From Escherichia coli (GTDB lineage: Bacteria; Pseudomonadota; Gammaproteobacteria; Enterobacterales; Enterobacteriaceae), in assembly GCF_001677475.2 (NCBI RefSeq), contig NZ_CP015229.1: a DNA stretch of 64,000 bases; one strand, given 5' to 3'. The number at the start of each line of letters is the position of its first letter. The first letter of the stretch is position 1. Both the position numbers and the translations under genes were made by a program. The notes beneath the pieces were generated by a model. That model was not told the origin of the DNA. It was given only the letters and a program-made list of their open reading frames with translations, and ran no database searches. Shown piece by piece: positions 26,724 to 54,880 of this stretch.

Positions 26724-26745
26724 TAGTTTAAGCTTCACCTGCACT

Positions 26746-26776
26746 GTAGACCGACGTGGATAGGGTGTCGGTCTAC
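26746..26776 (+). other. intercistronic stem-loop between sucB and sucC
   Basis: gtagaccgac / gtcggtctac perfect 10-bp inverted repeat. Confidence 0.5.
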
Positions 26777-26816
26777 GGTTTAAAAGATAACGATTACTGA
26801 AGGATGGACAGAACAC

Positions 26817-27983
26817 ATGAACTTACATGAATATCAGGCAAAACAACTTTTTGCCCGCTATGGCTTACCAGCACCGGTGGGTTATGCCTGTACTACTCCG
26901 CGCGAAGCAGAAGAAGCCGCTTCAAAAATCGGTGCCGGTCCGTGGGTAGTGAAATGTCAGGTTCACGCTGGTGGCCGCGGTAAAGCGGGCGGTGTGAAAG
27001 TTGTAAACAGCAAAGAAGACATCCGTGCTTTTGCAGAAAACTGGCTGGGCAAGCGTCTGGTAACGTATCAAACAGATGCCAATGGCCAACCGGTTAACCA
27101 GATTCTGGTTGAAGCAGCGACCGATATCGCTAAAGAGCTGTATCTCGGTGCCGTTGTTGACCGTAGTTCCCGTCGCGTGGTCTTTATGGCCTCCACCGAA
27201 GGCGGCGTGGAAATCGAAAAAGTGGCGGAAGAAACTCCGCACCTGATCCACAAAGTTGCGCTTGATCCGCTGACTGGCCCGATGCCGTATCAGGGACGCG
27301 AGCTGGCGTTCAAACTGGGTCTGGAAGGTAAACTGGTTCAGCAGTTCACCAAAATCTTCATGGGCCTGGCGACAATTTTCCTGGAGCGCGACCTGGCGCT
27401 GATCGAAATCAACCCGCTGGTCATTACCAAACAGGGCGATCTGATTTGCCTCGACGGCAAACTGGGCGCTGATGGCAACGCACTGTTCCGCCAGCCTGAT
27501 CTGCGCGAAATGCGTGACCAGTCGCAGGAAGATCCACGTGAAGCACAGGCTGCACAGTGGGAACTGAACTACGTTGCGCTGGACGGTAACATCGGTTGTA
27601 TGGTTAACGGCGCAGGTCTGGCGATGGGTACGATGGACATCGTTAAACTGCACGGCGGCGAACCAGCTAACTTCCTTGACGTTGGCGGCGGCGCAACCAA
27701 AGAACGTGTAACCGAAGCGTTCAAAATCATCCTCTCTGACGACAAAGTGAAAGCCGTTCTGGTTAACATCTTCGGCGGTATCGTTCGTTGCGACCTGATC
27801 GCTGACGGTATCATCGGCGCGGTAGCGGAAGTGGGTGTTAACGTACCGGTCGTGGTACGTCTGGAAGGTAACAACGCCGAACTCGGCGCGAAGAAACTGG
27901 CTGACAGCGGCCTGAATATTATTGCAGCAAAAGGTCTGACGGATGCAGCTCAGCAGGTTGTTGCCGCAGTGGAGGGGAAATAA
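26817..27983 (+). CDS. sucC: succinyl-CoA synthetase beta subunit
   Basis: 388-aa ORF, ATP-grasp. Confidence 0.97.
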
Positions 27984-28852
27984 TGTCCATTTTAATTGAT
28001 AAAAACACCAAGGTTATCTGCCAGGGCTTTACCGGTAGCCAGGGGACTTTCCACTCAGAACAGGCCATTGCATACGGCACTAAAATGGTTGGCGGCGTAA
28101 CTCCAGGTAAAGGCGGCACCACCCACCTCGGCCTACCGGTGTTCAACACCGTGCGTGAAGCTGTTGCTGCTACTGGCGCTACCGCTTCTGTTATCTACGT
28201 ACCAGCACCGTTCTGCAAAGACTCCATTCTGGAAGCTATTGATGCAGGCATCAAACTGATTATCACCATCACTGAAGGCATCCCGACGCTGGATATGCTG
28301 ACCGTGAAGGTGAAACTGGATGAAGCGGGCGTTCGCATGATCGGCCCGAACTGCCCAGGCGTTATCACTCCGGGTGAATGCAAAATCGGTATCCAGCCTG
28401 GTCACATTCACAAACCGGGTAAAGTGGGTATCGTTTCCCGTTCCGGTACACTGACCTATGAAGCGGTGAAACAGACCACGGATTACGGTTTCGGTCAGTC
28501 GACCTGTGTTGGTATCGGCGGCGACCCGATCCCTGGCTCTAACTTTATCGACATTCTCGAAATGTTCGAAAAAGATCCGCAGACCGAAGCGATCGTGATG
28601 ATCGGTGAGATCGGCGGTAGCGCTGAAGAAGAAGCGGCTGCGTACATCAAAGAGCACGTTACCAAGCCAGTTGTAGGTTACATCGCTGGTGTGACTGCGC
28701 CGAAAGGCAAACGTATGGGCCACGCGGGTGCGATCATTGCCGGTGGGAAAGGGACTGCGGATGAGAAATTCGCTGCTCTGGAAGCCGCAGGCGTGAAAAC
28801 TGTTCGCAGCCTGGCGGATATCGGTGAAGCACTGAAAACTGTTCTGAAATAA
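27983..28852 (+). CDS. sucD: succinyl-CoA synthetase alpha subunit
   Basis: 289-aa ORF, 1-nt overlap with sucC. Confidence 0.97.
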
Positions 28853-28951
28853 ATATCTGTAATAAGAAATAGCCCTCGCCGCTTCCCTCTACAGGAATGG
28901 CGAAGGGCTGTCGGTTTCGACATGGTTGGCCATCGTATGATGGCCTTTTTT
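28853..28951 (+). ncRNA. sdhX: sucD 3'UTR-derived sRNA region (SdhX/RybD-like) ending in an intrinsic terminator
   Basis: Two hairpins (agccctcgcc...ggcgaagggct at 28871-28909; ggccatc...gatggcc plus T6 at 28928-28951) directly after sucD stop; position matches the known SdhX locus; sequence identity not verified. Confidence 0.5.
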
Positions 28952-30347
28952 ATGCCTTAAACGTTAACCACGGTCGAAATCTGACCGCTGGCTGAATTAA
29001 TCCGGCTTCTTGTTGAGCTTCGATAACCGGACCAATATCTTTATAAGCCGCTGGCGCTTCTTCAAGACGTCGTTCTTCGCGCAATGTGACGCATTGCCAC
29101 GGCAGCGTTGACTCTTCAGTCACGCGTGAGCGCATGGCCTGCCGACGCTGGCTGCGTCCTGCTCCGTGACTGCATGACCACAGCCACTCCGGGTTGCCGC
29201 AACCTACCGCAAGCCACGAATAATCGCCCATTGAACCAGGGATTAATGCCAGATCACCCACTCGTGCCGGTGTTGCGCCTTTGCGATGAATATTCATTTC
29301 ATGCTCGCGAAGGATGATGTTATGTGGCACATCCACCACCAGATGCGAATTGTCCTGATGAAAGAGATCGGCAAAACATACGCGCACCATTTCGGCAATT
29401 GTGACGCGATTTAACCATGCGTAACGCGCCGCCATCCCCATCGCTTGTAGATATTCCTCCGCCAGTCCACCGGTTAGACCATATAACTCGCTTTGTGGAT
29501 GTTTATGCCCGGCAGGCCAGGCGGCACGGGCGCGATCCATCCAGCGTCTTCCGACGTAAAAGCCAACATCTCGCGATCCACTGTGGATCATCACCACAAT
29601 ATCGCCTGTTTTCAGCCCTTGTTGCCAGGCTACATGGCGATCAACCACGCTATCAACGACCTGAAGTTCAATAAAATGATTACCTGAACCCGGCGTACCC
29701 AGACAAGGATCGCGGAGTAATGCGCGGTCCGTTGCCAGCAGGGCGGGTGGGGCATAACGCGAATGACTGTTATGCTCGTTAAGCCCAATGCAGCGGTCAA
29801 TCTCTTGTACCATTCGGGGGATATTCGTGCGTGTCCAGAGACCTGCTGATGGCAAGGTCGACACGCAATCTGCCGGTCCGTCATCAAAAAGCGCGGTGAA
29901 CGCCTGTGCGGATAACGGAACATCGCGCTCATTTTGCAGTAGCACTTGCGTTAACCGCTGAGCGATGACGTCTTTATGCGCTTCGGCTTGCTCAAGTGTT
30001 AATCCGGTCGTCAGCAGCCGCATGCCACAAGAAATATCGGTGCCGATGGCGGCAGGAATGACTAAATCCGGCGTTGAGGCCACCACCGCGCCAACGGGGA
30101 CGCCATTGCCGGGATGAAAATCTGGCGTCGCGCACGTCTGGCGCACATAACCTGGGTGGTCTGGTAGCTTCACTTCTGCAAAATCAAGCAGTTGTGTTAC
30201 TGCTTTTTCTTCCAGCGGCAGTTCGTCCGGCAGCAGTACGCGGGCACTGGCACCTGATGGACGAGATAATGAAACAATATTGTTGGCGCGGGAAAGTTGG
30301 ATCCCTTTGCGCAGAAAGGCTTTATCAAGCCTTGAAAGATGATGCAT
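28950..30347 (-). CDS. RtcB-family RNA ligase paralog (3'-phosphate/5'-OH ligase family)
   Basis: 465-aa ORF with RtcB motifs aligned to E. coli RtcB from memory: PAAIGTDISCGM, GSGNHFIE, IHSGSRDVG, IPGSMG, SCSHGAGR, AYKDI. Confidence 0.85.
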   Translation of the reverse strand: MHHLSRLDKAFLRKGIQLSRANNIVSLSRPSGASARVLLPDELPLEEKAVTQLLDFAEVKLPDHPGYVRQTCATPDFHPGNGVPVGAVVASTPDLVIPAAIGTDISCGMRLLTTGLTLEQAEAHKDVIAQRLTQVLLQNERDVPLSAQAFTALFDDGPADCVSTLPSAGLWTRTNIPRMVQEIDRCIGLNEHNSHSRYAPPALLATDRALLRDPCLGTPGSGNHFIELQVVDSVVDRHVAWQQGLKTGDIVVMIHSGSRDVGFYVGRRWMDRARAAWPAGHKHPQSELYGLTGGLAEEYLQAMGMAARYAWLNRVTIAEMVRVCFADLFHQDNSHLVVDVPHNIILREHEMNIHRKGATPARVGDLALIPGSMGDYSWLAVGCGNPEWLWSCSHGAGRSQRRQAMRSRVTEESTLPWQCVTLREERRLEEAPAAYKDIGPVIEAQQEAGLIQPAVRFRPWLTFKA

Positions 30348-30938
30348 AACGCTGTCCTGAAATATAGACGTTAAACAACCCCCTGTATTGCGAGGGTAAT
30401 TTTGTCTTTCCGGTCAGCAGCCAGCAAAAGGGAAAGAAAACGCGCGTAGTGTATGTGGCGATAGCAAGTTTTACAAGTGGTAAATCTGGCTTATTGTTAA
30501 AGAGAAATTATCTTTAGCGAAGCCTTTTAAGGCCATGACTCATTCAATTTAACCGGACACAGAGATTATATAACATAGGGTATCTAAATTTATCATTGTA
30601 TACTTGTCATACTTCAAGTTGCATGTACTGCATCGATGTTCGCTCAGCCTGGCCACTTACTTATGTAAGCTTCTGGGAATTCATTATTTGTTGCCTTCCT
30701 GCAACTCGAGTTATTTAGAGTATATTTACACATATGAATAATATACTTACAATAATGTTTTTAAAGTATTGCATGCGGATAACTGAGGTGAAATTCCTGT
30801 TTTAGGATTATTGTCACTTTATTTTCCTGGTTGGACATATAGCTGACTGGTTTGTTTATTTGAATTATGATATTCATTAGTGCTACTGTTTTTTTATAAA
30901 ATAATTTTTTGAATTGTTATTTTTTCACGGAAGGCATT

Positions 30939-31844
30939 ATGCGAGGGAAAATACCTAAAACGGAACTGCTGGTGACTTTTGAGGTCGTCGCACGTCATGA
31001 AAGTTATACCAGAGCGGCAGAGGAGTTAGCGTTAACCCAAAGTGCAGTATTCAGACAAGTGAGTGCGCTGGAGGAATTTTTACATACTCCGTTATTTTCA
31101 CACTCTAAAAAACGTATTTTTCTTAATGATGCAGGGAAGTATTACCTGGGGATAGTAAAAGAAACATTAAATAAGCTGGAACGCGATACCAATACCATTA
31201 TGACCTGGCAACCTACAGTTAAGGTTATTGAACTTGCCGTGAATCCTACGTTTAGTACCCACTGGTTAATCCCAAATTTACATGAATTCACAAAGTTACA
31301 TCCCGATATTATTGTTAATATTCACTCTTTAGCTAATAACGGCGATTTTCTTAATCGGGAGTACGATGCTGTCATTATGCGCGAAAATTTTTGCGCGCCC
31401 TGGGCGGAAGTAGAATATCTCTTTGAAGAAGAGATTTTGCCGGTATGCAGCGGCAGTTTGCTTGCAATGTCCGATCAAAAACTGTCAGTGGCAGAACTGC
31501 TTACAGAGTTACCACTTCTGCATCAAAGTACCCGTATTACTGGCTGGGAAGAGTGGTTTGCTTTATCTGGCGTTAGCAGTCCGCTGGTCAATAACGGACC
31601 ACGTTTCGATTTGCTTTCAATGCTGATTGCCGCCGTGCGCTCTAATCTCGGCGTGGCGCTGTTACCACGGTTCGCTATTCAACATGATTTGGATAGTGGC
31701 GATATGGTGATTCCCTGTGATGTGCCTATTCGTACCGGTAATCGTTTTATTATGACGTGGCAGGAAGAGAAGTCTGACTCGCCGCACTTGCAGCAATTTC
31801 GTGAATGGTTGCTGGCGAAATCGGTCGTACCGCAGGAGATGTAA
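30939..31844 (+). CDS. LysR-family transcriptional regulator
   Basis: N-terminal HTH (LVTFEVVARHESYTRAAEELALTQSAVFRQVSALE), ~300 aa, GGAAGG Shine-Dalgarno before ATG at 30939; divergent from the RtcB paralog. Confidence 0.85.
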   Translation: MRGKIPKTELLVTFEVVARHESYTRAAEELALTQSAVFRQVSALEEFLHTPLFSHSKKRIFLNDAGKYYLGIVKETLNKLERDTNTIMTWQPTVKVIELAVNPTFSTHWLIPNLHEFTKLHPDIIVNIHSLANNGDFLNREYDAVIMRENFCAPWAEVEYLFEEEILPVCSGSLLAMSDQKLSVAELLTELPLLHQSTRITGWEEWFALSGVSSPLVNNGPRFDLLSMLIAAVRSNLGVALLPRFAIQHDLDSGDMVIPCDVPIRTGNRFIMTWQEEKSDSPHLQQFREWLLAKSVVPQEM

Positions 31845-34249: not shown

Positions 34250-35530
34250 TCAGGGCAGAGCAACGTTCGATTCATTGGGTTTTAATGCTTTACCCCGACA
34301 GCCCTCGCCGAAATGTTCGCCTTCCCACCGACTCACCATCGCAGCGCCCATTGCGTTGCTCATGACGTTTGTCGCGGAACGCCCCATATCAAGGAACGGA
34401 TCAACGCCCATCAGCAAGATCAGCCCCGCTTCCGGAATATTGAACTGGTTGAGCGTGGCGGCGATAACCACCATTGAAGCGCGTGGTACGCCAGCCATTC
34501 CTTTCGAGGTCAACATCAGGATCAACAGCATGGTGATTTGCTCACCGATGGATAAATGGATATTGCAGGCCTGGGCGATGAAAACTGTGGCGAAGGAGCA
34601 GTAGGCCATTGATCCAACGAGATTAAATGAGTAGCCAATGGGTAAGACAAAGCTGGCAATTTTGGGGGAAACGCCAAATTGCTCCAGTTTTTCAAGCGTT
34701 CCTGGAAAAGCCGCTTCAGAACTGGATGTGGTAAATGCCAGCAGGGCGGGTTCCGAAAGGGCGCGGGTCAGGCGTCTGATGCAGGGGCCGACATAAACGA
34801 TGGCCAGACCGATAAGCAGCACCCAAAGTAACAACATGGTGAAATAAAATTCACCCATAAAGATCCCGGCGCTCACCATAACTGCCAGTCCTCGTTCAGC
34901 AATCAATGCTGAAATAGCGGCGAATACGGTCAGGGGAGCGAAGAGCATGACGTAGCCAGTGAGCTTTAACATGGCATGTGCCAGCGAATCTAAGGCGTGA
35001 ACGATGGCGCTGCCTTTCTCGCCAATCGCCGTCAGGCTACAGCCGAGGAAAATTGAGAACACCACGATTTGCAAAATTTCATTGTGCGCCATGGCATCGA
35101 CAATGCTGGTGGGGAAAGCATGCGAAATAAATACTTTTAGCGTGAAGGGTTCTGACGCGACCACTCCAGTGGTTTCGGCACCGTGTGCAACAAAATTAAT
35201 TCCTGTACCTGGCATGAAGAAATTTACTGTTATTAAGCCTAAGGCAATTGACAGCAATGAGGCGCAAATAAATAAAAAGAGTGTTTTAGAAAAAATACGA
35301 CCAAGGGCTTTGGCATCGCCCATTTTAGCAATACCTACCACCAGGGTAGAGACCACTAACGGAGCGATAATCATTTTTATCAGTCGTAAGAAAATCGTCG
35401 TGAATATCGATATTTCTTGCGCATAGAGTTTTGCGGTTTCCGGTGAAGCAGTGTTATTGAGCACTACGCCGATAACCATTCCAAGTACCAGCGCCAAAAG
35501 AATCATCGTGGTTAAACTTATTTTCTTCAT
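34250..35530 (-). CDS. dicarboxylate/amino acid:cation symporter (DAACS family; GltP/DctA-like)
   Basis: Polytopic ORF with DAACS-type motifs; Met at 35530 preceded by GGAGG; substrate not inferable. Confidence 0.8.
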   Translation of the reverse strand: MKKISLTTMILLALVLGMVIGVVLNNTASPETAKLYAQEISIFTTIFLRLIKMIIAPLVVSTLVVGIAKMGDAKALGRIFSKTLFLFICASLLSIALGLITVNFFMPGTGINFVAHGAETTGVVASEPFTLKVFISHAFPTSIVDAMAHNEILQIVVFSIFLGCSLTAIGEKGSAIVHALDSLAHAMLKLTGYVMLFAPLTVFAAISALIAERGLAVMVSAGIFMGEFYFTMLLLWVLLIGLAIVYVGPCIRRLTRALSEPALLAFTTSSSEAAFPGTLEKLEQFGVSPKIASFVLPIGYSFNLVGSMAYCSFATVFIAQACNIHLSIGEQITMLLILMLTSKGMAGVPRASMVVIAATLNQFNIPEAGLILLMGVDPFLDMGRSATNVMSNAMGAAMVSRWEGEHFGEGCRGKALKPNESNVALP

Positions 35531-42468: not shown

Positions 42469-42891
42469 TTAATCAGTATAATCCTCATACAATAGGTCAG
42501 GATTTACAGAACCGTTAACGGGGTTTTGGTGTTGAAATTTAGAAATGGTGGAGTCAATCAATGAAGACAGTATCGAAAAAATGACTGTGTCAGAACTAAT
42601 TTCAATTAATCCTTCTCGTTGTTGATCAAAAAAGATATTTATCTTGATTTCATTTGTACTACGGCAATCAATATGTAGTAATTTTTGATCGCTGAGATTT
42701 TCTGTTTCATAAATGTTTTTGGCGATAGTCGGATGTATTGATGCCAGACATCTGCTCAGATAAGCCATATCCTTTAAGGAACTCCCCGCTGAGTAGAGGA
42801 TGTCAGAGAATTTTTGTGTGTCAACTGTTGTCTCTGAAGCGTATGTTGCATTGACAGGAAGAGTATTGAAAGAGATCTGAGATGGTATCAT
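42469..42891 (-). CDS. hypothetical protein (no recognisable family)
   Basis: 140-aa ORF in low-GC DNA, co-oriented with and 81 bp downstream of the 314-aa ORF. Confidence 0.5.
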   Translation of the reverse strand: MIPSQISFNTLPVNATYASETTVDTQKFSDILYSAGSSLKDMAYLSRCLASIHPTIAKNIYETENLSDQKLLHIDCRSTNEIKINIFFDQQREGLIEISSDTVIFSILSSLIDSTISKFQHQNPVNGSVNPDLLYEDYTD

Positions 42892-42972: not shown

Positions 42973-43917
42973 TTAAAGTATTTTATTGGCTTCGGTTAAC
43001 TGATCTATAACCAGTGCCAGATTGGTAAACATTTTGAAAAAGCGATACTGGCTCGGAATATCTCTTTCAAAGACGAAACATTCAAGGTCATTGTTTGAAA
43101 AATAAAGGACTAGTGTTGCTGATTCGTCAGGGAAAACATGGAAATGTATCTGGTTACCAGAAGGAGGATAGTCCAGAAGAAGGGTATCTTTGCCCGTCAC
43201 ATACCTGTTGTTGTCGTGGACGCTACGCTCACACTTCATCAGAGGTGTCAGGATACTCATGTATTCATCTGATGTTAATTTATTAAAATCATCATTCATT
43301 TTAAAGAAACGATAAAGTAACAGTACATCCTCTTGCGTAACCGGTTCGTTTGTTTTTAGAGGGAAATAAGCGGGAACCAGAAGATGAGGTTCTAATCTAT
43401 TTTGTTGAGCGCTATAACTGAATTTGAACATAAATTCTGGATCGCTCATCAATTGAGCGACATAATTATGCCTGGCTTCAAAAATTTTAATTTTTATCAG
43501 GTTGAATAAGTCTGTTTCGTCATCCTGTATTAAAAGACATTGGCCATAGCAGCCTGGATTTTTTTCATTATAAGCAGAAACGGTTATTCTGTCAGAGGTG
43601 TCAACGTTATATTCAAAAGCCAGATAGTGACCTTCTTCATCGCGATTTGTTTCCAGGTTATTTAAATTCATCACATGAAGTGTTTGCAATGCTGATTCAA
43701 TGAGTTGTTGACTCTCTGAGGTAAATGTTTTGCGCTGCGTTGTATAAAGTGTATCAATTCCAACGACTATCCGATGTGGATCAAGGATGGCGGCAATCAT
43801 CTTTATTACCTGCACAGTCACGGGTGATGTCATTGATTCTTCATCTGTTTTTAGAGGATCATTAGATGGCCAACCTGAGAAGCGATTGACAGCCGAACCG
43901 ATATTATCTGGACTCAT
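42973..43917 (-). CDS. hypothetical protein (no recognisable family)
   Basis: 314-aa ORF, low GC (~37-38% by eye versus ~51% backbone), no motif I can assign. Confidence 0.55.
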   Translation of the reverse strand: MSPDNIGSAVNRFSGWPSNDPLKTDEESMTSPVTVQVIKMIAAILDPHRIVVGIDTLYTTQRKTFTSESQQLIESALQTLHVMNLNNLETNRDEEGHYLAFEYNVDTSDRITVSAYNEKNPGCYGQCLLIQDDETDLFNLIKIKIFEARHNYVAQLMSDPEFMFKFSYSAQQNRLEPHLLVPAYFPLKTNEPVTQEDVLLLYRFFKMNDDFNKLTSDEYMSILTPLMKCERSVHDNNRYVTGKDTLLLDYPPSGNQIHFHVFPDESATLVLYFSNNDLECFVFERDIPSQYRFFKMFTNLALVIDQLTEANKIL

Positions 43918-44722
43918 AGCAGCAACCTCATTGTAATCAAGCGAGGCGCTGAGCGTACTCGGCTATAGAAAAACTAACTTGCAAAAATCGCTCATTTTTC
44001 ATTTATCAGGCGAAAGTGGCCTCTGTTCACTCAGAAACAATCACTCCCGCTAAGTCATACCTGTTTCATCGATACATTTAAGTGATTATTACTAATGAAA
44101 CAATAACATAACGGGCTTACGGTCGGTGCTCATAAAGGCAACAATCAATTAACTTTGATAAAAATATGTTATGTAAAATAGCAACAAATTGGCTACTCTA
44201 ATCAATTGGTATTATAAAAAGAGGATAAGGCGGTTCTGTTAAATAAAACACTGGTTTTTTATCTATACCTTTTCATTGTAATAATTGTGTTGCATAAATA
44301 TTTCACAATAAATTAACAATAAAATCACCAATGATCTATGGTTTATACATAATTAACATATTTGGTTGGTTTTGATATAAATCAATTTTTAATTCTTGAA
44401 AAAAATCTGCAAAACACGATAAATTGTCGTAGATCAAATTGGTGAGATCGTGACAATTTCGCTATAAATTGATCACTGTCGAAAAATGCAAATTTGCTCA
44501 ATAAAAACCTGTTTATTGTAAGGATTTTGCGGCGTAATATAATTACGGGATCAATTTGGTTTATTCATTAACATATTTGTAACTTTTTTATCATTGTCTT
44601 TTCCTCTTTTGATGAAATGGCAACGATAGAGGCGAGCAAATAATTTTGTATTGGGGCATGCGTGTGACCCTTTCTAACGGGGTTCACTCTCGGAGTCTTC
44701 ATGCGATGAGCAAGGAGTCATG
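43918..44722 (+). promoter_or_regulatory. cydAB upstream regulatory region
   Basis: ~800-bp AT-rich non-coding region before cydA; in K-12 this carries multiple promoters under ArcA/Fnr control (established knowledge; sites not mapped here). Confidence 0.6.
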
Positions 44723-46291
44723 ATGTTAGATATAGTCGAACTGTCGCGCTTACAGTTTGCCTTGACCGCGATGTACCACTTCCTTTTTGTGCCACTGACG
44801 CTCGGTATGGCGTTCCTGCTGGCCATTATGGAAACGGTCTACGTCCTTTCCGGCAAACAGATTTATAAAGATATGACCAAGTTCTGGGGCAAGTTGTTTG
44901 GTATCAACTTCGCTCTGGGTGTGGCTACCGGTCTGACCATGGAGTTCCAGTTCGGGACTAACTGGTCTTACTATTCCCACTATGTAGGGGATATCTTCGG
45001 TGCGCCGCTGGCAATCGAAGGTCTGATGGCCTTCTTCCTCGAATCCACCTTTGTAGGTCTGTTCTTCTTCGGTTGGGATCGTCTGGGTAAGGTTCAGCAT
45101 ATGTGTGTCACCTGGCTGGTGGCGCTCGGTTCAAACCTGTCCGCGCTGTGGATTCTGGTTGCGAACGGCTGGATGCAAAACCCAATCGCGTCCGATTTCA
45201 ACTTTGAAACTATGCGTATGGAGATGGTGAGCTTCTCCGAGCTGGTGCTTAACCCGGTTGCTCAGGTGAAATTCGTTCACACTGTAGCGTCTGGTTATGT
45301 GACTGGCGCGATGTTCATCCTCGGTATCAGCGCATGGTATATGCTGAAAGGTCGTGACTTCGCCTTCGCTAAACGCTCCTTTGCTATCGCTGCCAGCTTC
45401 GGTATGGCTGCCGTTCTGTCTGTTATTGTTCTGGGTGATGAATCCGGCTACGAAATGGGCGACGTGCAGAAAACCAAACTGGCTGCTATTGAAGCTGAGT
45501 GGGAAACGCAACCTGCGCCTGCTGCCTTTACTCTGTTCGGCATTCCTGATCAGGAAGAGGAGACGAACAAATTTGCGATCCAGATCCCTTACGCGCTGGG
45601 CATCATTGCAACGCGTTCCGTGGATACTCCAGTTATCGGCCTGAAAGAACTGATGGTGCAGCATGAAGAACGCATTCGTAACGGGATGAAGGCGTACTCT
45701 CTGCTCGAACAACTGCGTTCTGGTTCTACCGACCAGGCGGTTCGTGACCAGTTCAATAGCATGAAGAAAGACCTCGGTTACGGTCTGCTGCTGAAACGCT
45801 ATACGCCAAACGTGGCTGATGCGACTGAAGCTCAGATTCAACAGGCAACCAAAGACTCCATTCCGCGTGTAGCGCCGCTGTACTTTGCGTTCCGTATCAT
45901 GGTGGCGTGTGGCTTCTTGCTGCTGGCAATCATCGCGCTCTCTTTCTGGAGTGTCATCCGCAACCGCATTGGCGAGAAAAAATGGTTGCTGCGCGCCGCG
46001 CTGTACGGTATTCCGCTGCCGTGGATTGCTGTAGAAGCGGGCTGGTTCGTGGCTGAATATGGCCGCCAACCGTGGGCTATCGGTGAAGTGCTGCCGACAG
46101 CTGTGGCAAACTCGTCACTGACCGCAGGCGATCTCATCTTCTCAATGGTGCTGATTTGTGGCCTGTATACCCTGTTCCTGGTGGCAGAATTGTTCTTAAT
46201 GTTCAAGTTTGCACGCCTCGGCCCAAGCAGCCTGAAAACCGGTCGCTATCACTTTGAGCAGTCTTCCACGACTACTCAGCCGGCACGCTAA
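44723..46291 (+). CDS. cydA: cytochrome bd-I ubiquinol oxidase subunit I
   Basis: 522 aa from [20 protein letters not shown]. Confidence 0.97.
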
Positions 46292-52307: not shown

Positions 52308-52853
<546 letters not shown>

Positions 52854-52862
52854 GAGAATTGC

Positions 52863-53654
52863 ATGAGCAGTAACTTCAGACATCAACTATTGAGTCTGTC
52901 GTTACTGGTTGGTATAGCGGCCCCCTGGGCCGCTTTTGCTCAGGCACCAATCAGTAGTGTCGGCTCAGGCTCGGTCGAAGACCGCGTCACTCAACTTGAG
53001 CGTATTTCAAATGCTCACAGCCAGCTTTTAACCCAACTCCAGCAACAACTCTCTGATAATCAATCCGATATTGATTCCCTGCGCGGTCAGATTCAGGAAA
53101 ATCAGTATCAACTGAATCAGGTCGTGGAGCGGCAAAAGCAGATCCTGTTGCAGATCGACAGCCTCAGCAGCGGTGGTGCAGCGGCGCAATCAACCAGTGG
53201 TGATCAAAGCGGTGCGGCGGCATCAACGACGCCGACAGCTGATGCTGGTACTGCGAATGCTGGCGCGCCGGTGAAAAGCGGCGATGCAAACACGGATTAC
53301 AATGCAGCAATTGCGCTGGTGCAGGATAAATCCCGCCAGGATGACGCAATGGTGGCATTTCAGAATTTCATCAAAAATTACCCTGATTCAACTTACCTGC
53401 CAAACGCCAATTATTGGCTGGGTCAGTTAAACTACAACAAGGGTAAAAAAGATGATGCGGCGTACTATTTTGCTTCGGTAGTAAAAAACTATCCGAAGTC
53501 ACCAAAGGCTGCAGATGCGATGTTTAAAGTCGGTGTCATCATGCAGGACAAAGGTGACACCGCAAAAGCGAAAGCCGTATACCAGCAGGTTATCAGTAAA
53601 TACCCTGGTACTGATGGCGCTAAACAGGCACAAAAACGTCTGAACGCGATGTAA
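52863..53654 (+). CDS. cpoB: cell division coordinator CpoB (YbgF), TPR protein
   Basis: 263-aa ORF, signal peptide, coiled coil and TPR region. Confidence 0.93.
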   Translation: MSSNFRHQLLSLSLLVGIAAPWAAFAQAPISSVGSGSVEDRVTQLERISNAHSQLLTQLQQQLSDNQSDIDSLRGQIQENQYQLNQVVERQKQILLQIDSLSSGGAAAQSTSGDQSGAAASTTPTADAGTANAGAPVKSGDANTDYNAAIALVQDKSRQDDAMVAFQNFIKNYPDSTYLPNANYWLGQLNYNKGKKDDAAYYFASVVKNYPKSPKAADAMFKVGVIMQDKGDTAKAKAVYQQVISKYPGTDGAKQAQKRLNAM

Positions 53655-53818: not shown

Positions 53819-53894
53819 GGGTCGTTAGCTCAGTTGGTAGAGCAGTTGACTTTTAATCAATTGGTCGCAGGTTCGAATCCTGCACGACCCACCA
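53819..53894 (+). tRNA. lysT: tRNA-Lys (anticodon UUU)
   Basis: 76-nt sequence GGGTCGTTAGCTCAGTTGGTAGAGCAGTTGACTTTTAATCAATTGG...CACGACCCACCA. Confidence 0.97.
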
Positions 53895-54029
53895 ATCGCT
53901 AAGGTGGAAGCGGTAGTAAAACGTGAAGGATAACGTTGCGTCAGCAACGGCCCGAAGGGCGAGACGAAGTCGAGTCATCCTGCACGACCCACCACTAACA
54001 TAGTTAGTTGTAGTATCCAGCGTAGTATC

Positions 54030-54105
54030 GGGTGATTAGCTCAGCTGGGAGAGCACCTCCCTTACAAGGAGGGGGTCGGCGGTTCGATCCCGTCATCACC
54101 CACCA
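54030..54105 (+). tRNA. valT: tRNA-Val (anticodon UAC)
   Basis: 76-nt sequence GGGTGATTAGCTCAGCTGGGAGAGCACCTCCCTTACAAGGAGG...CACCCACCA. Confidence 0.97.
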
Positions 54106-54107
54106 CC

Positions 54108-54183
54108 GGGTCGTTAGCTCAGTTGGTAGAGCAGTTGACTTTTAATCAATTGGTCGCAGGTTCGAATCCTGCACGACCCACCA
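54108..54183 (+). tRNA. lysW: tRNA-Lys (anticodon UUU)
   Basis: identical Lys tRNA sequence, 2 nt after valT. Confidence 0.97.
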
Positions 54184-54234
54184 CTAATTACGGTGGGTTC
54201 GGTGGAAGTAGTTTGTAGTATCCAGCGCAGTATC

Positions 54235-54310
54235 GGGTGATTAGCTCAGCTGGGAGAGCACCTCCCTTACAAGGAGGGGGTCGGCGGTTCGATCCCGTCA
54301 TCACCCACCA
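54235..54310 (+). tRNA. valZ: tRNA-Val (anticodon UAC)
   Basis: identical Val tRNA sequence. Confidence 0.97.
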
Positions 54311-54313
54311 CTC

Positions 54314-54389
54314 GGGTCGTTAGCTCAGTTGGTAGAGCAGTTGACTTTTAATCAATTGGTCGCAGGTTCGAATCCTGCACGACCCACCA
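54314..54389 (+). tRNA. lysY: tRNA-Lys (anticodon UUU)
   Basis: identical Lys tRNA sequence. Confidence 0.97.
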
Positions 54390-54535
54390 ATTTTAACATC
54401 AAACTCAGATGTTAAGCGTGAAGGATAACGTTGCGCCAGCAACGGCCCGTAGGGCGAGCGAAGCGAGTCATCCTGCACGACACACCAATTTTAAAGATTG
54501 GTTCCGAGTAGAAATCTTTCAGGTAACACCCGTAT

Positions 54536-54611
54536 GGGTCGTTAGCTCAGTTGGTAGAGCAGTTGACTTTTAATCAATTGGTCGCAGGTTCGAATCCTGC
54601 ACGACCCACCA
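54536..54611 (+). tRNA. lysZ: tRNA-Lys (anticodon UUU)
   Basis: identical Lys tRNA sequence. Confidence 0.97.
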
Positions 54612-54644
54612 TCCTGAATGATTAAAGCAGCATAATCCCGCAAG

Positions 54645-54720
54645 GGGTCGTTAGCTCAGTTGGTAGAGCAGTTGACTTTTAATCAATTGGTCGCAGGTTC
54701 GAATCCTGCACGACCCACCA
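54645..54720 (+). tRNA. lysQ: tRNA-Lys (anticodon UUU)
   Basis: identical Lys tRNA sequence. Confidence 0.97.
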
Positions 54721-54724
54721 ATGT

Positions 54725-54751
54725 AAAAAAGCGCCCTAAAGGCGCTTTTTT
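54725..54751 (+). terminator. intrinsic terminator after lysQ
   Basis: aaaaaagcgccctaaaggcgctttttt hairpin with flanking A/T runs. Confidence 0.8.
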
Positions 54752-54880
54752 GCTATCTGAGATATTCAAAGATTCGAACCTGCAGCAGGTTCGAGTTGAG
54801 CGCAGCGAAACAACGGAGCCGCTCGCGGCGACGGCCCGAAGGGCGAGCGAAGCGAGTCATCCTGCACGACCCACCAATGC

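What the first reader, a model, noticed from the sequence alone, without database searches (positions are those of the whole stretch)
28853..28960. Island junction abuts the sucD 3'UTR sRNA/terminator, which also terminates the convergent RtcB paralog
Seen in sequence: the RtcB-family gene stop codon (28950-28952) lies inside the T-tract of the sucD terminator hairpin (28928-28951), so the accessory DNA begins immediately after the terminator and the hairpin is placed to act on both strands. Inference: the 3'UTR region (the SdhX/RybD locus in K-12) appears preserved, but its 3' context differs from K-12.
Basis: partly seen in the sequence, partly recalled or inferred. Interest (0 to 1): 0.35.

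Follow-up and report, generated by a model that had tools for sequence, protein, structure and literature searches.

The report
SdhX terminator meets RtcB gene end
The known small RNA SdhX at the end of the E. coli TCA-cycle operon is intact here, and the neighbouring RtcB-family gene borrows its stop codon from the SdhX terminator flank at a clean 5.6-kb deletion/insertion junction, but the terminator hairpin is probably not what ends the neighbour's transcript; overall an ordinary, largely already-known locus.

Summary
sucD stops at 28850-28852. The 99-nt 3'UTR (28853-28951) is identical to K-12 SdhX, seed included. The terminator is GGCCATC-GTAT-GATGGCC (28928-28945) plus T6 (28946-28951). 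The stop of a convergent 465-aa RtcB-family gene is the complement of 28950-28952.

- **Junction.** The breakpoint is 28955|28956, inside the gene's last codon. It equals, base for base, a 5,610-bp removal of mngR-mngA-mngB from the composite arrangement of strain Z1002. The flank supplies a new last codon (Gly to Ala) and the stop.
- **Frequency.** 994 of 5,426 complete E. coli genomes carry this junction. About 156 keep the gene intact. The rest share one remnant.
- **K-12 context.** It is analogous: the mngR stop lies 4 nt past the T-tract.
- **"Acts on both strands".** Not supported. The minus-strand tail of that hairpin is AACCAUGU. Published K-12 3'-end maps put the minus-strand terminus about 60 nt further on, after the complement of the SdhX 5' stem-loop (window equivalent 28865).

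So the convergent transcript probably runs antisense across all of SdhX. SdhX and the methylaspartate island are already known. Interest is low.

The parts
27983..28852 (+). sucD coding sequence, the last gene of sdhCDAB-sucABCD
   Evidence: ORF list. Annotated as sucD in matching E. coli genomes.
28853..28952 (+). sucD 3'UTR, which is the SdhX (RybD) sRNA locus. The expected plus-strand 3' end is at about 28952-28954.
   Evidence: 99/99 identical to K-12 through the T-tract. Fold z-score -4.4. The K-12 plus-strand terminus at 765,144-154 (dominant 765,149/151) maps here.
28871..28909 (.). SdhX 5' stem-loop. Its minus-strand complement is the likely terminator hairpin for the convergent gene.
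   Evidence: dG -22.0 on the plus strand and -23.4 on the minus strand. The TRS fold for the K-12 antisense terminus uses this hairpin, at -24.2 kcal/mol.
28862..28870 (-). U-rich tail AUUUCUUAU after the minus-strand hairpin. The predicted 3' end of the RtcB-family transcript is at about 28865.
   Evidence: Tail score 2.1-3.6. The K-12 minus-strand terminus with dominant 765,062/063 maps to 28865/28866. Transfer to this strain is by inference from sequence identity.
28916..28926 (+). SdhX seed UUCGACAUGGU (core CGACAU), which pairs with the ackA start region
   Evidence: The sequence matches the seed quoted in PMC6393394. It is invariant in all E. coli architectures aligned.
28928..28951 (+). 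Rho-independent terminator of sdh-suc and SdhX: 7-bp stem, GTAT loop, T6
   Evidence: dG -11.5; 7 of 8 U in the tail; tail score 4.61.
28950..28952 (-). Stop codon TAA of the RtcB-family gene, made of two T-tract bases plus A28952
   Evidence: K-12 has G at this position. Z1002, which has both mngRAB and the island, has A.
28955..28956 (.). Breakpoint between the sucD-terminator flank and the RtcB-family gene body, with 1-nt microhomology (C)
   Evidence: Deleting L020 3264-8873 (5,610 bp) reproduces the window exactly, with 0 mismatches from -155 to +60.
28950..30347 (-). RtcB-family gene, 465 aa, intact
   Evidence: Pfam RtcB at 326 bits. Below the NCBIfam E. coli RtcB equivalog cutoff, 207 against 407. 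Six catalytic motifs align with T. thermophilus RtcB 2epg. dN/dS 0.12-0.24.
28950..28993 (-). The 44-nt 3' end of the gene that survives as a remnant in O157-type genomes
   Evidence: retained segments 28802-28993 and 29167-29223.
30909..31844 (+). LysR-family regulator, the first gene of the methylaspartate/mesaconate island proper
   Evidence: Pfam HTH_1 and LysR_substrate. Annotations.

Best explanation
The sucD 3'UTR here is the unchanged SdhX sRNA with its own strong, one-directional Rho-independent terminator.

The DNA downstream is a variable segment of the E. coli chromosome. It has at least five architectures:
- mngR-mngAB only (K-12);
- mngRAB plus RtcB-family gene plus methylaspartate island (Z1002);
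- RtcB-family gene plus island (this window);
- RtcB remnant plus island (O157);
- a TPR gene (A3).

The window's junction is the exact product of removing 5,610 bp (mngR-mngA-mngB and their flanks) from the composite arrangement. The equivalent reading is that the composite arose by inserting that cassette. The join falls inside the last codon of the RtcB-family gene. The terminator flank ...TTTTTTATGC therefore now supplies the last codon (GCA Ala instead of GGG Gly) and an in-frame TAA at the same position, which keeps the protein at 465 aa.

Transcription of the RtcB-family gene most likely reads through the complement of the sucD terminator hairpin. That hairpin has no U-tract on the minus strand and lies 4 nt from the stop codon. 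Transcription then ends about 60 nt later, at the complement of the SdhX 5' stem-loop followed by AUUUCUUAUU. The resulting 3'UTR of roughly 85-90 nt is fully antisense to SdhX.

Shown: the sequence identity, the junction arithmetic, the population counts and the K-12 3' ends. Inferred: the direction of the event (deletion favoured), and transfer of the K-12 minus-strand terminus to the RtcB-family transcript.
For: - SdhX is 99/99 identical to K-12, and the seed is as published.
- Z1002 junctions are TTTTTTATGC|TTATCG and GTTACCC|CTTAAACG. The in-silico deletion matches the window perfectly around the join.
- All nine alleles are intact at 465 aa. Those next to sucD end in A* and those next to mngB end in G*.
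- A separate Escherichia species (MOD1-EC7003) carries the composite junction and is the outgroup in the gene tree.
- Counts out of 5,426 genomes: island 1,122; mngR 3,884; this junction 994; intact gene next to sucD 156; intact gene anywhere 289.
- Terminator asymmetry: plus-strand tail score 4.61, minus-strand hairpin A 0.11, minus-strand hairpin B 2.1-3.6. The scan finds no minus-strand terminator at hairpin A.
- K-12 experimental termini: minus strand 765,059-068, after the -24.2 kcal/mol hairpin and labelled 'Antisense sdhX', in two TRS datasets; plus strand 765,144-154.
Against: - No transcript data exist for this strain or for the RtcB-family gene, so its expression and promoter are unknown. 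There is only a weak sigma-70-like match and no sigma-54 motif.
- The K-12 minus-strand terminus is assumed to come from mngR read-through. It could come from another antisense start.
- The supplementary files were truncated when stored, so a second minus-strand terminus at hairpin A in other sheets cannot be excluded.
- A Liu-lab preprint argues that many E. coli bidirectional terminators do not look intrinsic and work by hairpin pausing plus polymerase collision. Hairpin A could therefore contribute when sdh-suc is highly transcribed.
- The direction of the 5.6-kb event is not proven. Gene-tree topology does not track junction type.
Confidence: 0.72

Rival explanations
1. The sucD terminator hairpin (28928-28945) is a genuine bidirectional terminator. 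It stops sdh-suc transcription on the plus strand. On the minus strand it pauses or stops RNA polymerase coming from the RtcB-family gene, either intrinsically or through head-on collisions with the heavily transcribed sdh-suc operon.
For: The hairpin lies between convergent genes, and the same stem forms on both strands at -11.5 kcal/mol. The collision model says bidirectional terminators need not resemble intrinsic ones and that the hairpin acts as a pause site.
Against: The minus-strand tail is AACCAUGU, with tail score 0.11. There is no A-tract upstream on the plus strand. The stop codon 4 nt upstream means a terminating ribosome would cover the 5' arm of the stem; this point is established knowledge and was not tested here. 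K-12 3'-end maps show the minus-strand terminus about 60 nt further on, and none at this hairpin in the data available.
Confidence: 0.15
2. The window arrangement (sucD|rtcB) is ancestral, and the mngR-mngA-mngB cassette was later inserted between the terminator and the RtcB-family gene. In that case the TAA inside the T-tract flank is the original stop, and the GGG-TAA end in Z1002 is the derived one.
For: The junction arithmetic is symmetric, so deletion and insertion give the same sequences. The sucD|rtcB alleles are diverse, down to 94% identity, so that arrangement is old. Z1002's allele nests inside the sucD|rtcB alleles.
Against: The only non-coli Escherichia with the gene has the composite arrangement with a near-identical junction and 3'UTR. 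A single deletion with 1-nt microhomology is mechanistically simpler than a precise 5.6-kb insertion with no mobility genes or repeats. mngR abuts SdhX in 72% of genomes.
Confidence: 0.25
3. The SdhX 3' end is a site-specific integration target, as tRNA, tmRNA and some sRNA genes are, and the accessory segment is a mobile genomic island that integrated there.
For: Several different gene contents all begin within about 5 nt of the T-tract.
Against: No integrase or transposase was found: the far-end ORFs have no Pfam hits and the annotations list none. There are no flanking direct repeats. The RtcB-family gene has core-like GC content. The junction is fully explained by a simple deletion/insertion polymorphism. 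A sharp boundary is expected anyway, because selection preserves the sRNA and terminator up to their last base.
Confidence: 0.04

Closest known systems
SdhX (RybD), the Hfq-dependent sRNA processed from the sdhCDAB-sucABCD 3'UTR (Miyakoshi et al. 2019, PMC6393394; De Mets et al. 2019, from my own knowledge)
   Same: Position directly after the sucD stop. 99/99 nt identity to K-12. The seed UUCGACAUGGU, the E. coli-specific upstream part, and the terminator stem plus U6 are all the same.
   Different: Nothing within the sRNA. Only the base after the U-tract differs (A against G in K-12), along with the downstream gene.
K-12 sucD/mngR convergent pair
   Same: A convergent ORF ends a few nucleotides from the SdhX T-tract: mngR at +4 nt, and here an overlap of 2 nt. 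The intervening sequence is identical, so the termination signals on both strands are the same.
   Different: The convergent gene is an RtcB-family RNA ligase homolog rather than the GntR-type repressor MngR. Its stop codon overlaps the T-tract.
Methylaspartate (glutamate fermentation / mesaconase FumD) gene cluster of E. coli O157:H7 (Kronen and Berg 2015, PMC4682846)
   Same: [quoted passage not shown]
   Different: O157 retains only 44-nt and 57-nt scraps of the RtcB-family gene. The window has it intact. The paper does not mention the RtcB gene or sucD.
Overlapping bidirectional terminators at convergent E. coli genes (Ju et al. 2019, as described in bioRxiv 10.1101/2022.10.23.513370)
   Same: A convergent pair whose transcripts overlap across hairpin-forming sequence. 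In K-12 the two mapped 3' ends are 87 nt apart and enclose both hairpins.
   Different: Each strand appears to use its own hairpin with its own U-rich tail: hairpin A for plus, the complement of hairpin B for minus. They do not share a single hairpin. The overlap is a functional sRNA.
Canonical E. coli RtcB (rtcBA operon, RtcR/sigma-54 controlled)
   Same: Pfam RtcB domain across residues 63-464. The metal-binding and His-GMP motifs are conserved.
   Different: Scores below the NCBIfam equivalog cutoff. There is no adjacent rtcA or rtcR, and no sigma-54 motif upstream. The nearest relatives outside Escherichia are 57-63% identical proteins of Burkholderiales, Snodgrassella and Gilliamella.

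Membership tests
SdhX (RybD) 3'UTR-derived sRNA | Lies in the sucD 3'UTR, immediately after the sucD stop codon | tested here: met
   sucD stop at 28850-52, UTR at 28853-28951.
SdhX (RybD) 3'UTR-derived sRNA | Conserved seed UUCGACAUGGU (core CGACAU) just before the terminator stem | tested here: met
   Present at 28916-28926 and identical to K-12. Seed as quoted in PMC6393394.
SdhX (RybD) 3'UTR-derived sRNA | Rho-independent terminator with a terminal U stretch (the Hfq site) | tested here: met
   7-bp GC-rich stem plus U6. The K-12 plus-strand terminus maps here.
SdhX (RybD) 3'UTR-derived sRNA | RNase E processing from the operon mRNA, Hfq binding, and repression of ackA | not testable with these tools
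   Shown experimentally for K-12 and Salmonella (PMC6393394). Inferred here from 100% sequence identity.
Bidirectional intrinsic terminator (one hairpin, U-tract on both strands) | Located between convergent genes | tested here: met
   sucD (+) and the RtcB-family gene (-) converge.
Bidirectional intrinsic terminator (one hairpin, U-tract on both strands) | U-rich tract follows the hairpin on both strands (an A-tract upstream on the plus strand) | tested here: not met
   The minus-strand tail is AACCAUGUCG, 2 of 8 U, score 0.11 against 4.61. There is no minus-strand hit in the scan.
Bidirectional intrinsic terminator (one hairpin, U-tract on both strands) | Transcript 3' ends on both strands map just beyond the same hairpin | tested here: not met
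   In K-12, with identical sequence, the minus-strand terminus is at window-equivalent 28865. That is beyond the other hairpin. This strain was not measured.
Collision-type overlapping bidirectional terminator (Ju et al. 2019 model) | Convergent transcripts with overlapping 3' ends, where termination depends on opposing transcription | not testable with these tools
   An overlap of about 88 nt is seen in K-12 maps. Dependence on collisions needs experiments.
RtcB RNA ligase family (PF01139) | Full-length RtcB domain with the metal-ligand and His nucleophile motifs | tested here: met
   Pfam E-value 5e-97 over residues 63-464. The motifs PDFH, DISCG, GSGNHF, HSGSR, PHN and SHGAGR align with 2epg.
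Canonical E. coli RtcB (NCBIfam NF007153 equivalog) | Score above the curated equivalog cutoff | tested here: not met
   207 bits against a cutoff of 407. It is a distinct paralogous subfamily.
Integrase-mediated genomic island | Integrase or recombinase gene and flanking direct repeats (att) | tested here: not met
   Annotations and Pfam show none. There are no flanking repeats.

The most novel reading that the evidence does not exclude
The convergent neighbour's transcript ends beyond the SdhX 5' stem-loop, so its 3'UTR is a perfect antisense of the whole sRNA, seed included. Which gene sits next to sucD would then set a strain-specific level of antisense RNA. That gene is mngR in 72% of strains, an intact RtcB-family gene in about 3%, and nothing convergent in about 15%. 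The antisense RNA could titrate or destroy SdhX, or the gene could be silenced by sdh-suc transcription. Either effect would couple accessory-gene content to acetate and TCA-cycle regulation. The widespread decay of the RtcB-family gene in this position could be one consequence.
Probability: 0.1. Interest if true: 0.55.

Novelty: new member of a known kind. Interest (0 to 1): 0.2.

Why it matters
It matters little for new biology. SdhX, the methylaspartate island and convergent genes with overlapping 3' ends are all documented. Three modest points have some value.

1. The junction is a clean example of how a conserved sRNA and terminator sets the exact boundary of a variable chromosomal segment. 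It also shows a deletion/insertion join re-creating an in-frame stop from terminator-flank sequence.
2. The complement of the SdhX 5' stem-loop, not the sucD terminator, is the mapped minus-strand termination site in K-12. Whatever gene lies downstream therefore makes a full antisense to SdhX.
3. The census of five architectures in 5,426 genomes could guide anyone testing strain differences in SdhX function.

Tried and rejected
- **Rfam.** Both the gathering search and the permissive search gave no SdhX family, only a sub-threshold isrD terminator-like hit. Identity therefore had to rest on alignment and literature.
- **K-12 reciprocal scar.** I looked for a deletion scar between mngB and cydA in K-12. 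There is none. The spacer is unrelated apart from about 400 nt upstream of cydA, at 82% identity.
- **CTTA microhomology.** I considered a 4-nt CTTA microhomology for the deletion. It predicts one C too few and was rejected. The actual join has 1-nt microhomology.
- **Compensatory G to A.** I considered that A28952 was a compensatory mutation creating the stop after the deletion. This was rejected because Z1002 already has A at its sucD|mngR junction.
- **Recoding site.** I considered a programmed frameshift at the A-run plus hairpin (A AAA AAG). The heptamer is not in the gene's reading frame and follows the stop, so this was rejected by inspection.
- **Sigma-54 promoter.** I searched for a canonical rtcBA-like sigma-54 promoter upstream of the gene. 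No match was found in 30348-30908.
- **Literature.** A search for mngR, sucD and terminator returned nothing. The Ju et al. 2019 paper is not held.
- **Mobile-island hallmarks.** Integrase and direct repeats are absent.

Full report
**Observation**

The window sequence and ORF list show sucD at 27983-28852. A 99-nt untranslated stretch follows. It ends in the hairpin GGCCATC-GTAT-GATGGCC (28928-28945) and a run of six T (28946-28951).

A 465-aa minus-strand ORF spans 28950-30347. Its TAA stop is the complement of 28950-28952, so two of its three bases are the last two T of the T-tract.

The consensus scan lists this hairpin as the best plus-strand terminator in 28000-31500 and finds nothing on the minus strand there. 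The UTR folds far better than shuffled controls, with a z-score of -4.4.

**Identity of the 3'UTR**

Rfam has no model that matches. Alignment to K-12 MG1655 shows that 28853-28951 is identical at every base. The seed quoted for SdhX is UUCGACAUGGU with core CGACAU, lying immediately before the terminator stem (PMC6393394). In the window it sits at 28916-28926. It is invariant in every E. coli architecture I aligned. The terminal 38-nt form described in that paper corresponds to about 28914-28951.

**What lies downstream, and where the junction is**

A search of 5,426 complete E. coli genomes shows that homology downstream of the T-tract stops at different points in different genomes. Fetching representatives revealed five arrangements:

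| Arrangement | Example |
|---|---|
| sucD, then mngR-mngAB | K-12 |
| sucD, RtcB-family gene, LysR regulator, cobO, class I fumarase, methylaspartate and glutamate-mutase genes, cydA | Z0117EC0005 and the window |
| Same island, but the RtcB-family gene reduced to scraps | O157 |
| A TPR protein gene | strain A3 |
| Composite: sucD, mngR, mngA, mngB, RtcB-family gene, island | Z1002 |

The island is the known glutamate-fermentation / mesaconase (FumD) cluster of O157:H7 (PMC4682846). That paper does not mention the RtcB gene.

All arrangements are identical through the T-tract and diverge within about five bases after it.

**The junction is a clean 5.6-kb deletion/insertion polymorphism**

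In Z1002 the sucD|mngR junction reads TTTTTTATGC|TTATCG. The mngB|rtcB junction reads CAGTTACCC|CTTAAACG. Removing L020 3264-8873 (5,610 bp) in silico gives TTTTTTATGCCTTAAACG. This matches the window with no mismatch from 155 bases left to 60 bases right of the join. The join has one base of microhomology.

The breakpoint is therefore 28955|28956, inside the last sense codon of the RtcB-family gene. In the composite arrangement the protein ends ...TFKG followed by its own TAA. Next to sucD it ends ...TFKA, and the TAA is built from the T-tract plus A28952. All nine alleles examined are intact and 465 aa long.

The A at 28952 is already present in Z1002's sucD|mngR junction. No compensatory mutation is therefore needed.

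An unclassified Escherichia species, MOD1-EC7003, has the composite junction almost base for base. It is the outgroup in the gene tree. That favours the composite form as the older one and deletion as the event.

The direction is not proven, however. Z1002's allele is 99.6% identical to a sucD-adjacent allele. Junction type has therefore been reshuffled by recombination.

**Census (out of 5,426 genomes)**

| Feature | Genomes |
|---|---|
| mngR present | 3,884 |
| Island present (methylaspartate ammonia-lyase gene) | 1,122 |
| Exact terminator|rtcB-3'-end junction | 994 |
| RtcB-family gene at 80% coverage or more | 289 |
| Intact RtcB-family gene next to sucD | 156 |

These numbers reconcile. 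994 plus roughly 130 composite genomes comes close to the 1,122 island carriers.

The truncated form has the same breakpoints in O157 and in an unrelated canine isolate: 28993|29167, then a 57-nt piece. It therefore reflects shared events rather than many independent ones.

The junction is common, at 18% of genomes.

**Is it a mobile island using SdhX as an attachment site?**

I found no integrase and no flanking direct repeats. The RtcB-family gene has core-like GC content. The sharp boundary is what purifying selection on the sRNA and terminator would produce for any rearrangement.

**Does the hairpin act on both strands?**

- **Sequence features.** On the plus strand the hairpin (-11.5 kcal/mol) is followed by UUUUUUAU, with tail score 4.61. 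On the minus strand the same stem is followed by AACCAUGU, with tail score 0.11. The stop codon lies only 4 nt upstream of the stem on the minus strand. A terminating ribosome would cover the 5' arm; this is established knowledge and was not tested here.
- **An alternative site.** The minus-strand complement of the SdhX 5' stem-loop (28909-28871, -23.4 kcal/mol) is followed by AUUUCUUAUU, with score 2.1-3.6. The simple scan misses it because the stem is bulged.
- **Experimental data for K-12.** K-12 is identical across this stretch. The TRS study (PMC10687069) lists a minus-strand 3' terminus labelled 'Antisense sdhX' at 765,059-765,068, with dominant position 765,062 or 765,063, in two separate analyses. 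Its fold sequence ends ...GGCGAGGGCUAUUUCUU and has a -24.2 kcal/mol hairpin. The study also lists the plus-strand sucD/sdhX terminus at 765,144-765,154.
- **Mapping to the window.** The only offset that reproduces the 87-nt distance between the two dominant positions places each dominant at the second-to-last base of its listed fold sequence. That maps the termini to window positions 28865 (minus) and 28952 (plus).

In K-12 the convergent transcript therefore reads through the terminator hairpin and ends after the other hairpin. It overlaps the whole of SdhX by about 88 nt. By sequence identity, the same is expected for the RtcB-family transcript here.

There are four caveats:
- The stored supplement files were truncated.
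- The K-12 antisense transcript is assumed, not shown, to come from mngR.
- Expression of the RtcB-family gene is unknown.
- A Liu-lab preprint argues that hairpins without U-tracts can act as pause sites in collision-driven bidirectional termination. A contribution of the terminator hairpin when both genes are active therefore cannot be excluded.

**The RtcB-family gene**

It is a full-length Pfam RtcB protein. The catalytic motifs align with solved RtcB structures. dN/dS is 0.12-0.24 among alleles, so it is functional where it is kept.

It is not the canonical E. coli RtcB. It scores below the NCBIfam equivalog cutoff and has no sigma-54 motif upstream. Its nearest relatives outside Escherichia are 57-63% identical proteins in Burkholderiales, Snodgrassella and Gilliamella. 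Its function in this context is unknown.

**Comparison and verdict**

The locus combines three known things: SdhX, the methylaspartate island, and convergent genes with overlapping 3' ends.

Its statement that the K-12 context differs is true only for gene content, because mngR ends 4 nt from the same T-tract. Its idea that the terminator hairpin serves both strands is not supported by sequence features or by K-12 3'-end maps.

Two small things are new. One is the exact junction reconstruction, in which the stop codon and last residue are supplied by the terminator flank. The other is the recognition that the downstream gene's transcript is a complete antisense of SdhX.

The most novel reading still open is strain-specific antisense control of SdhX by whichever gene sits downstream. 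It is untested, and I rate it unlikely.

Noticed in passing
window 26724-26816 (sucB-sucC spacer): The spacer is 93 nt here and in O157 (L003), but about 260-275 nt in K-12, Z0117EC0005 and A3. This is a presence/absence polymorphism, possibly a REP-type insert.
   Followed up: no
window 42469-42891 and 42973-43917 (minus strand): Two low-GC (33-39%) ORFs at the cydA-proximal end of the island have no Pfam match. RefSeq relatives annotate them as hypothetical proteins.
   Followed up: partly
L005 283-302 (Z1002, mngB/rtcB spacer): The hairpin AGGCCATC-TTCG-GATGGCCT between mngB and the RtcB-family gene has the same 7-bp stem sequence (GGCCATC/GATGGCC) as the SdhX terminator. This may be coincidence or a shared origin.
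   Followed up: no
window 44347-44753 (upstream of cydA): This region is only 82% identical to the K-12 cydA upstream region. That is far more divergent than the flanking core genes, which are 97-99% identical. The right-hand boundary of the variable segment may therefore extend into the cydA regulatory region.
   Followed up: no
window 52754-52892 and 53819-54876: Rfam hits: the CpoB/ybgF thermometer, and the lysT-valT-lysW tRNA array with three RtT repeats. These are the ordinary K-12-like features.
   Followed up: no
L011 (MAG 'Citrobacter sp.' HRGM_Genome_0066): The contig carries an E. coli-type SdhX, the sucD|rtcB junction, and a sucD 97.1% identical to the window. The Citrobacter label looks doubtful.
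   Followed up: partly
window 28950-30347; L013-L018: The nearest homologs of the RtcB-family protein outside Escherichia are 57-63% identical proteins in Burkholderiales (Massilia, Acidovorax, Undibacterium, Saezia) and in the bee-gut bacteria Snodgrassella and Gilliamella. This suggests horizontal origin. Their gene neighbourhoods were not examined.
   Followed up: no
window 29733-29748 and 34736-34751: An exact 16-nt direct repeat, TGCCAGCAGGGCGGGT, occurs inside the RtcB-family gene and inside the transporter gene. It is probably chance.
   Followed up: no
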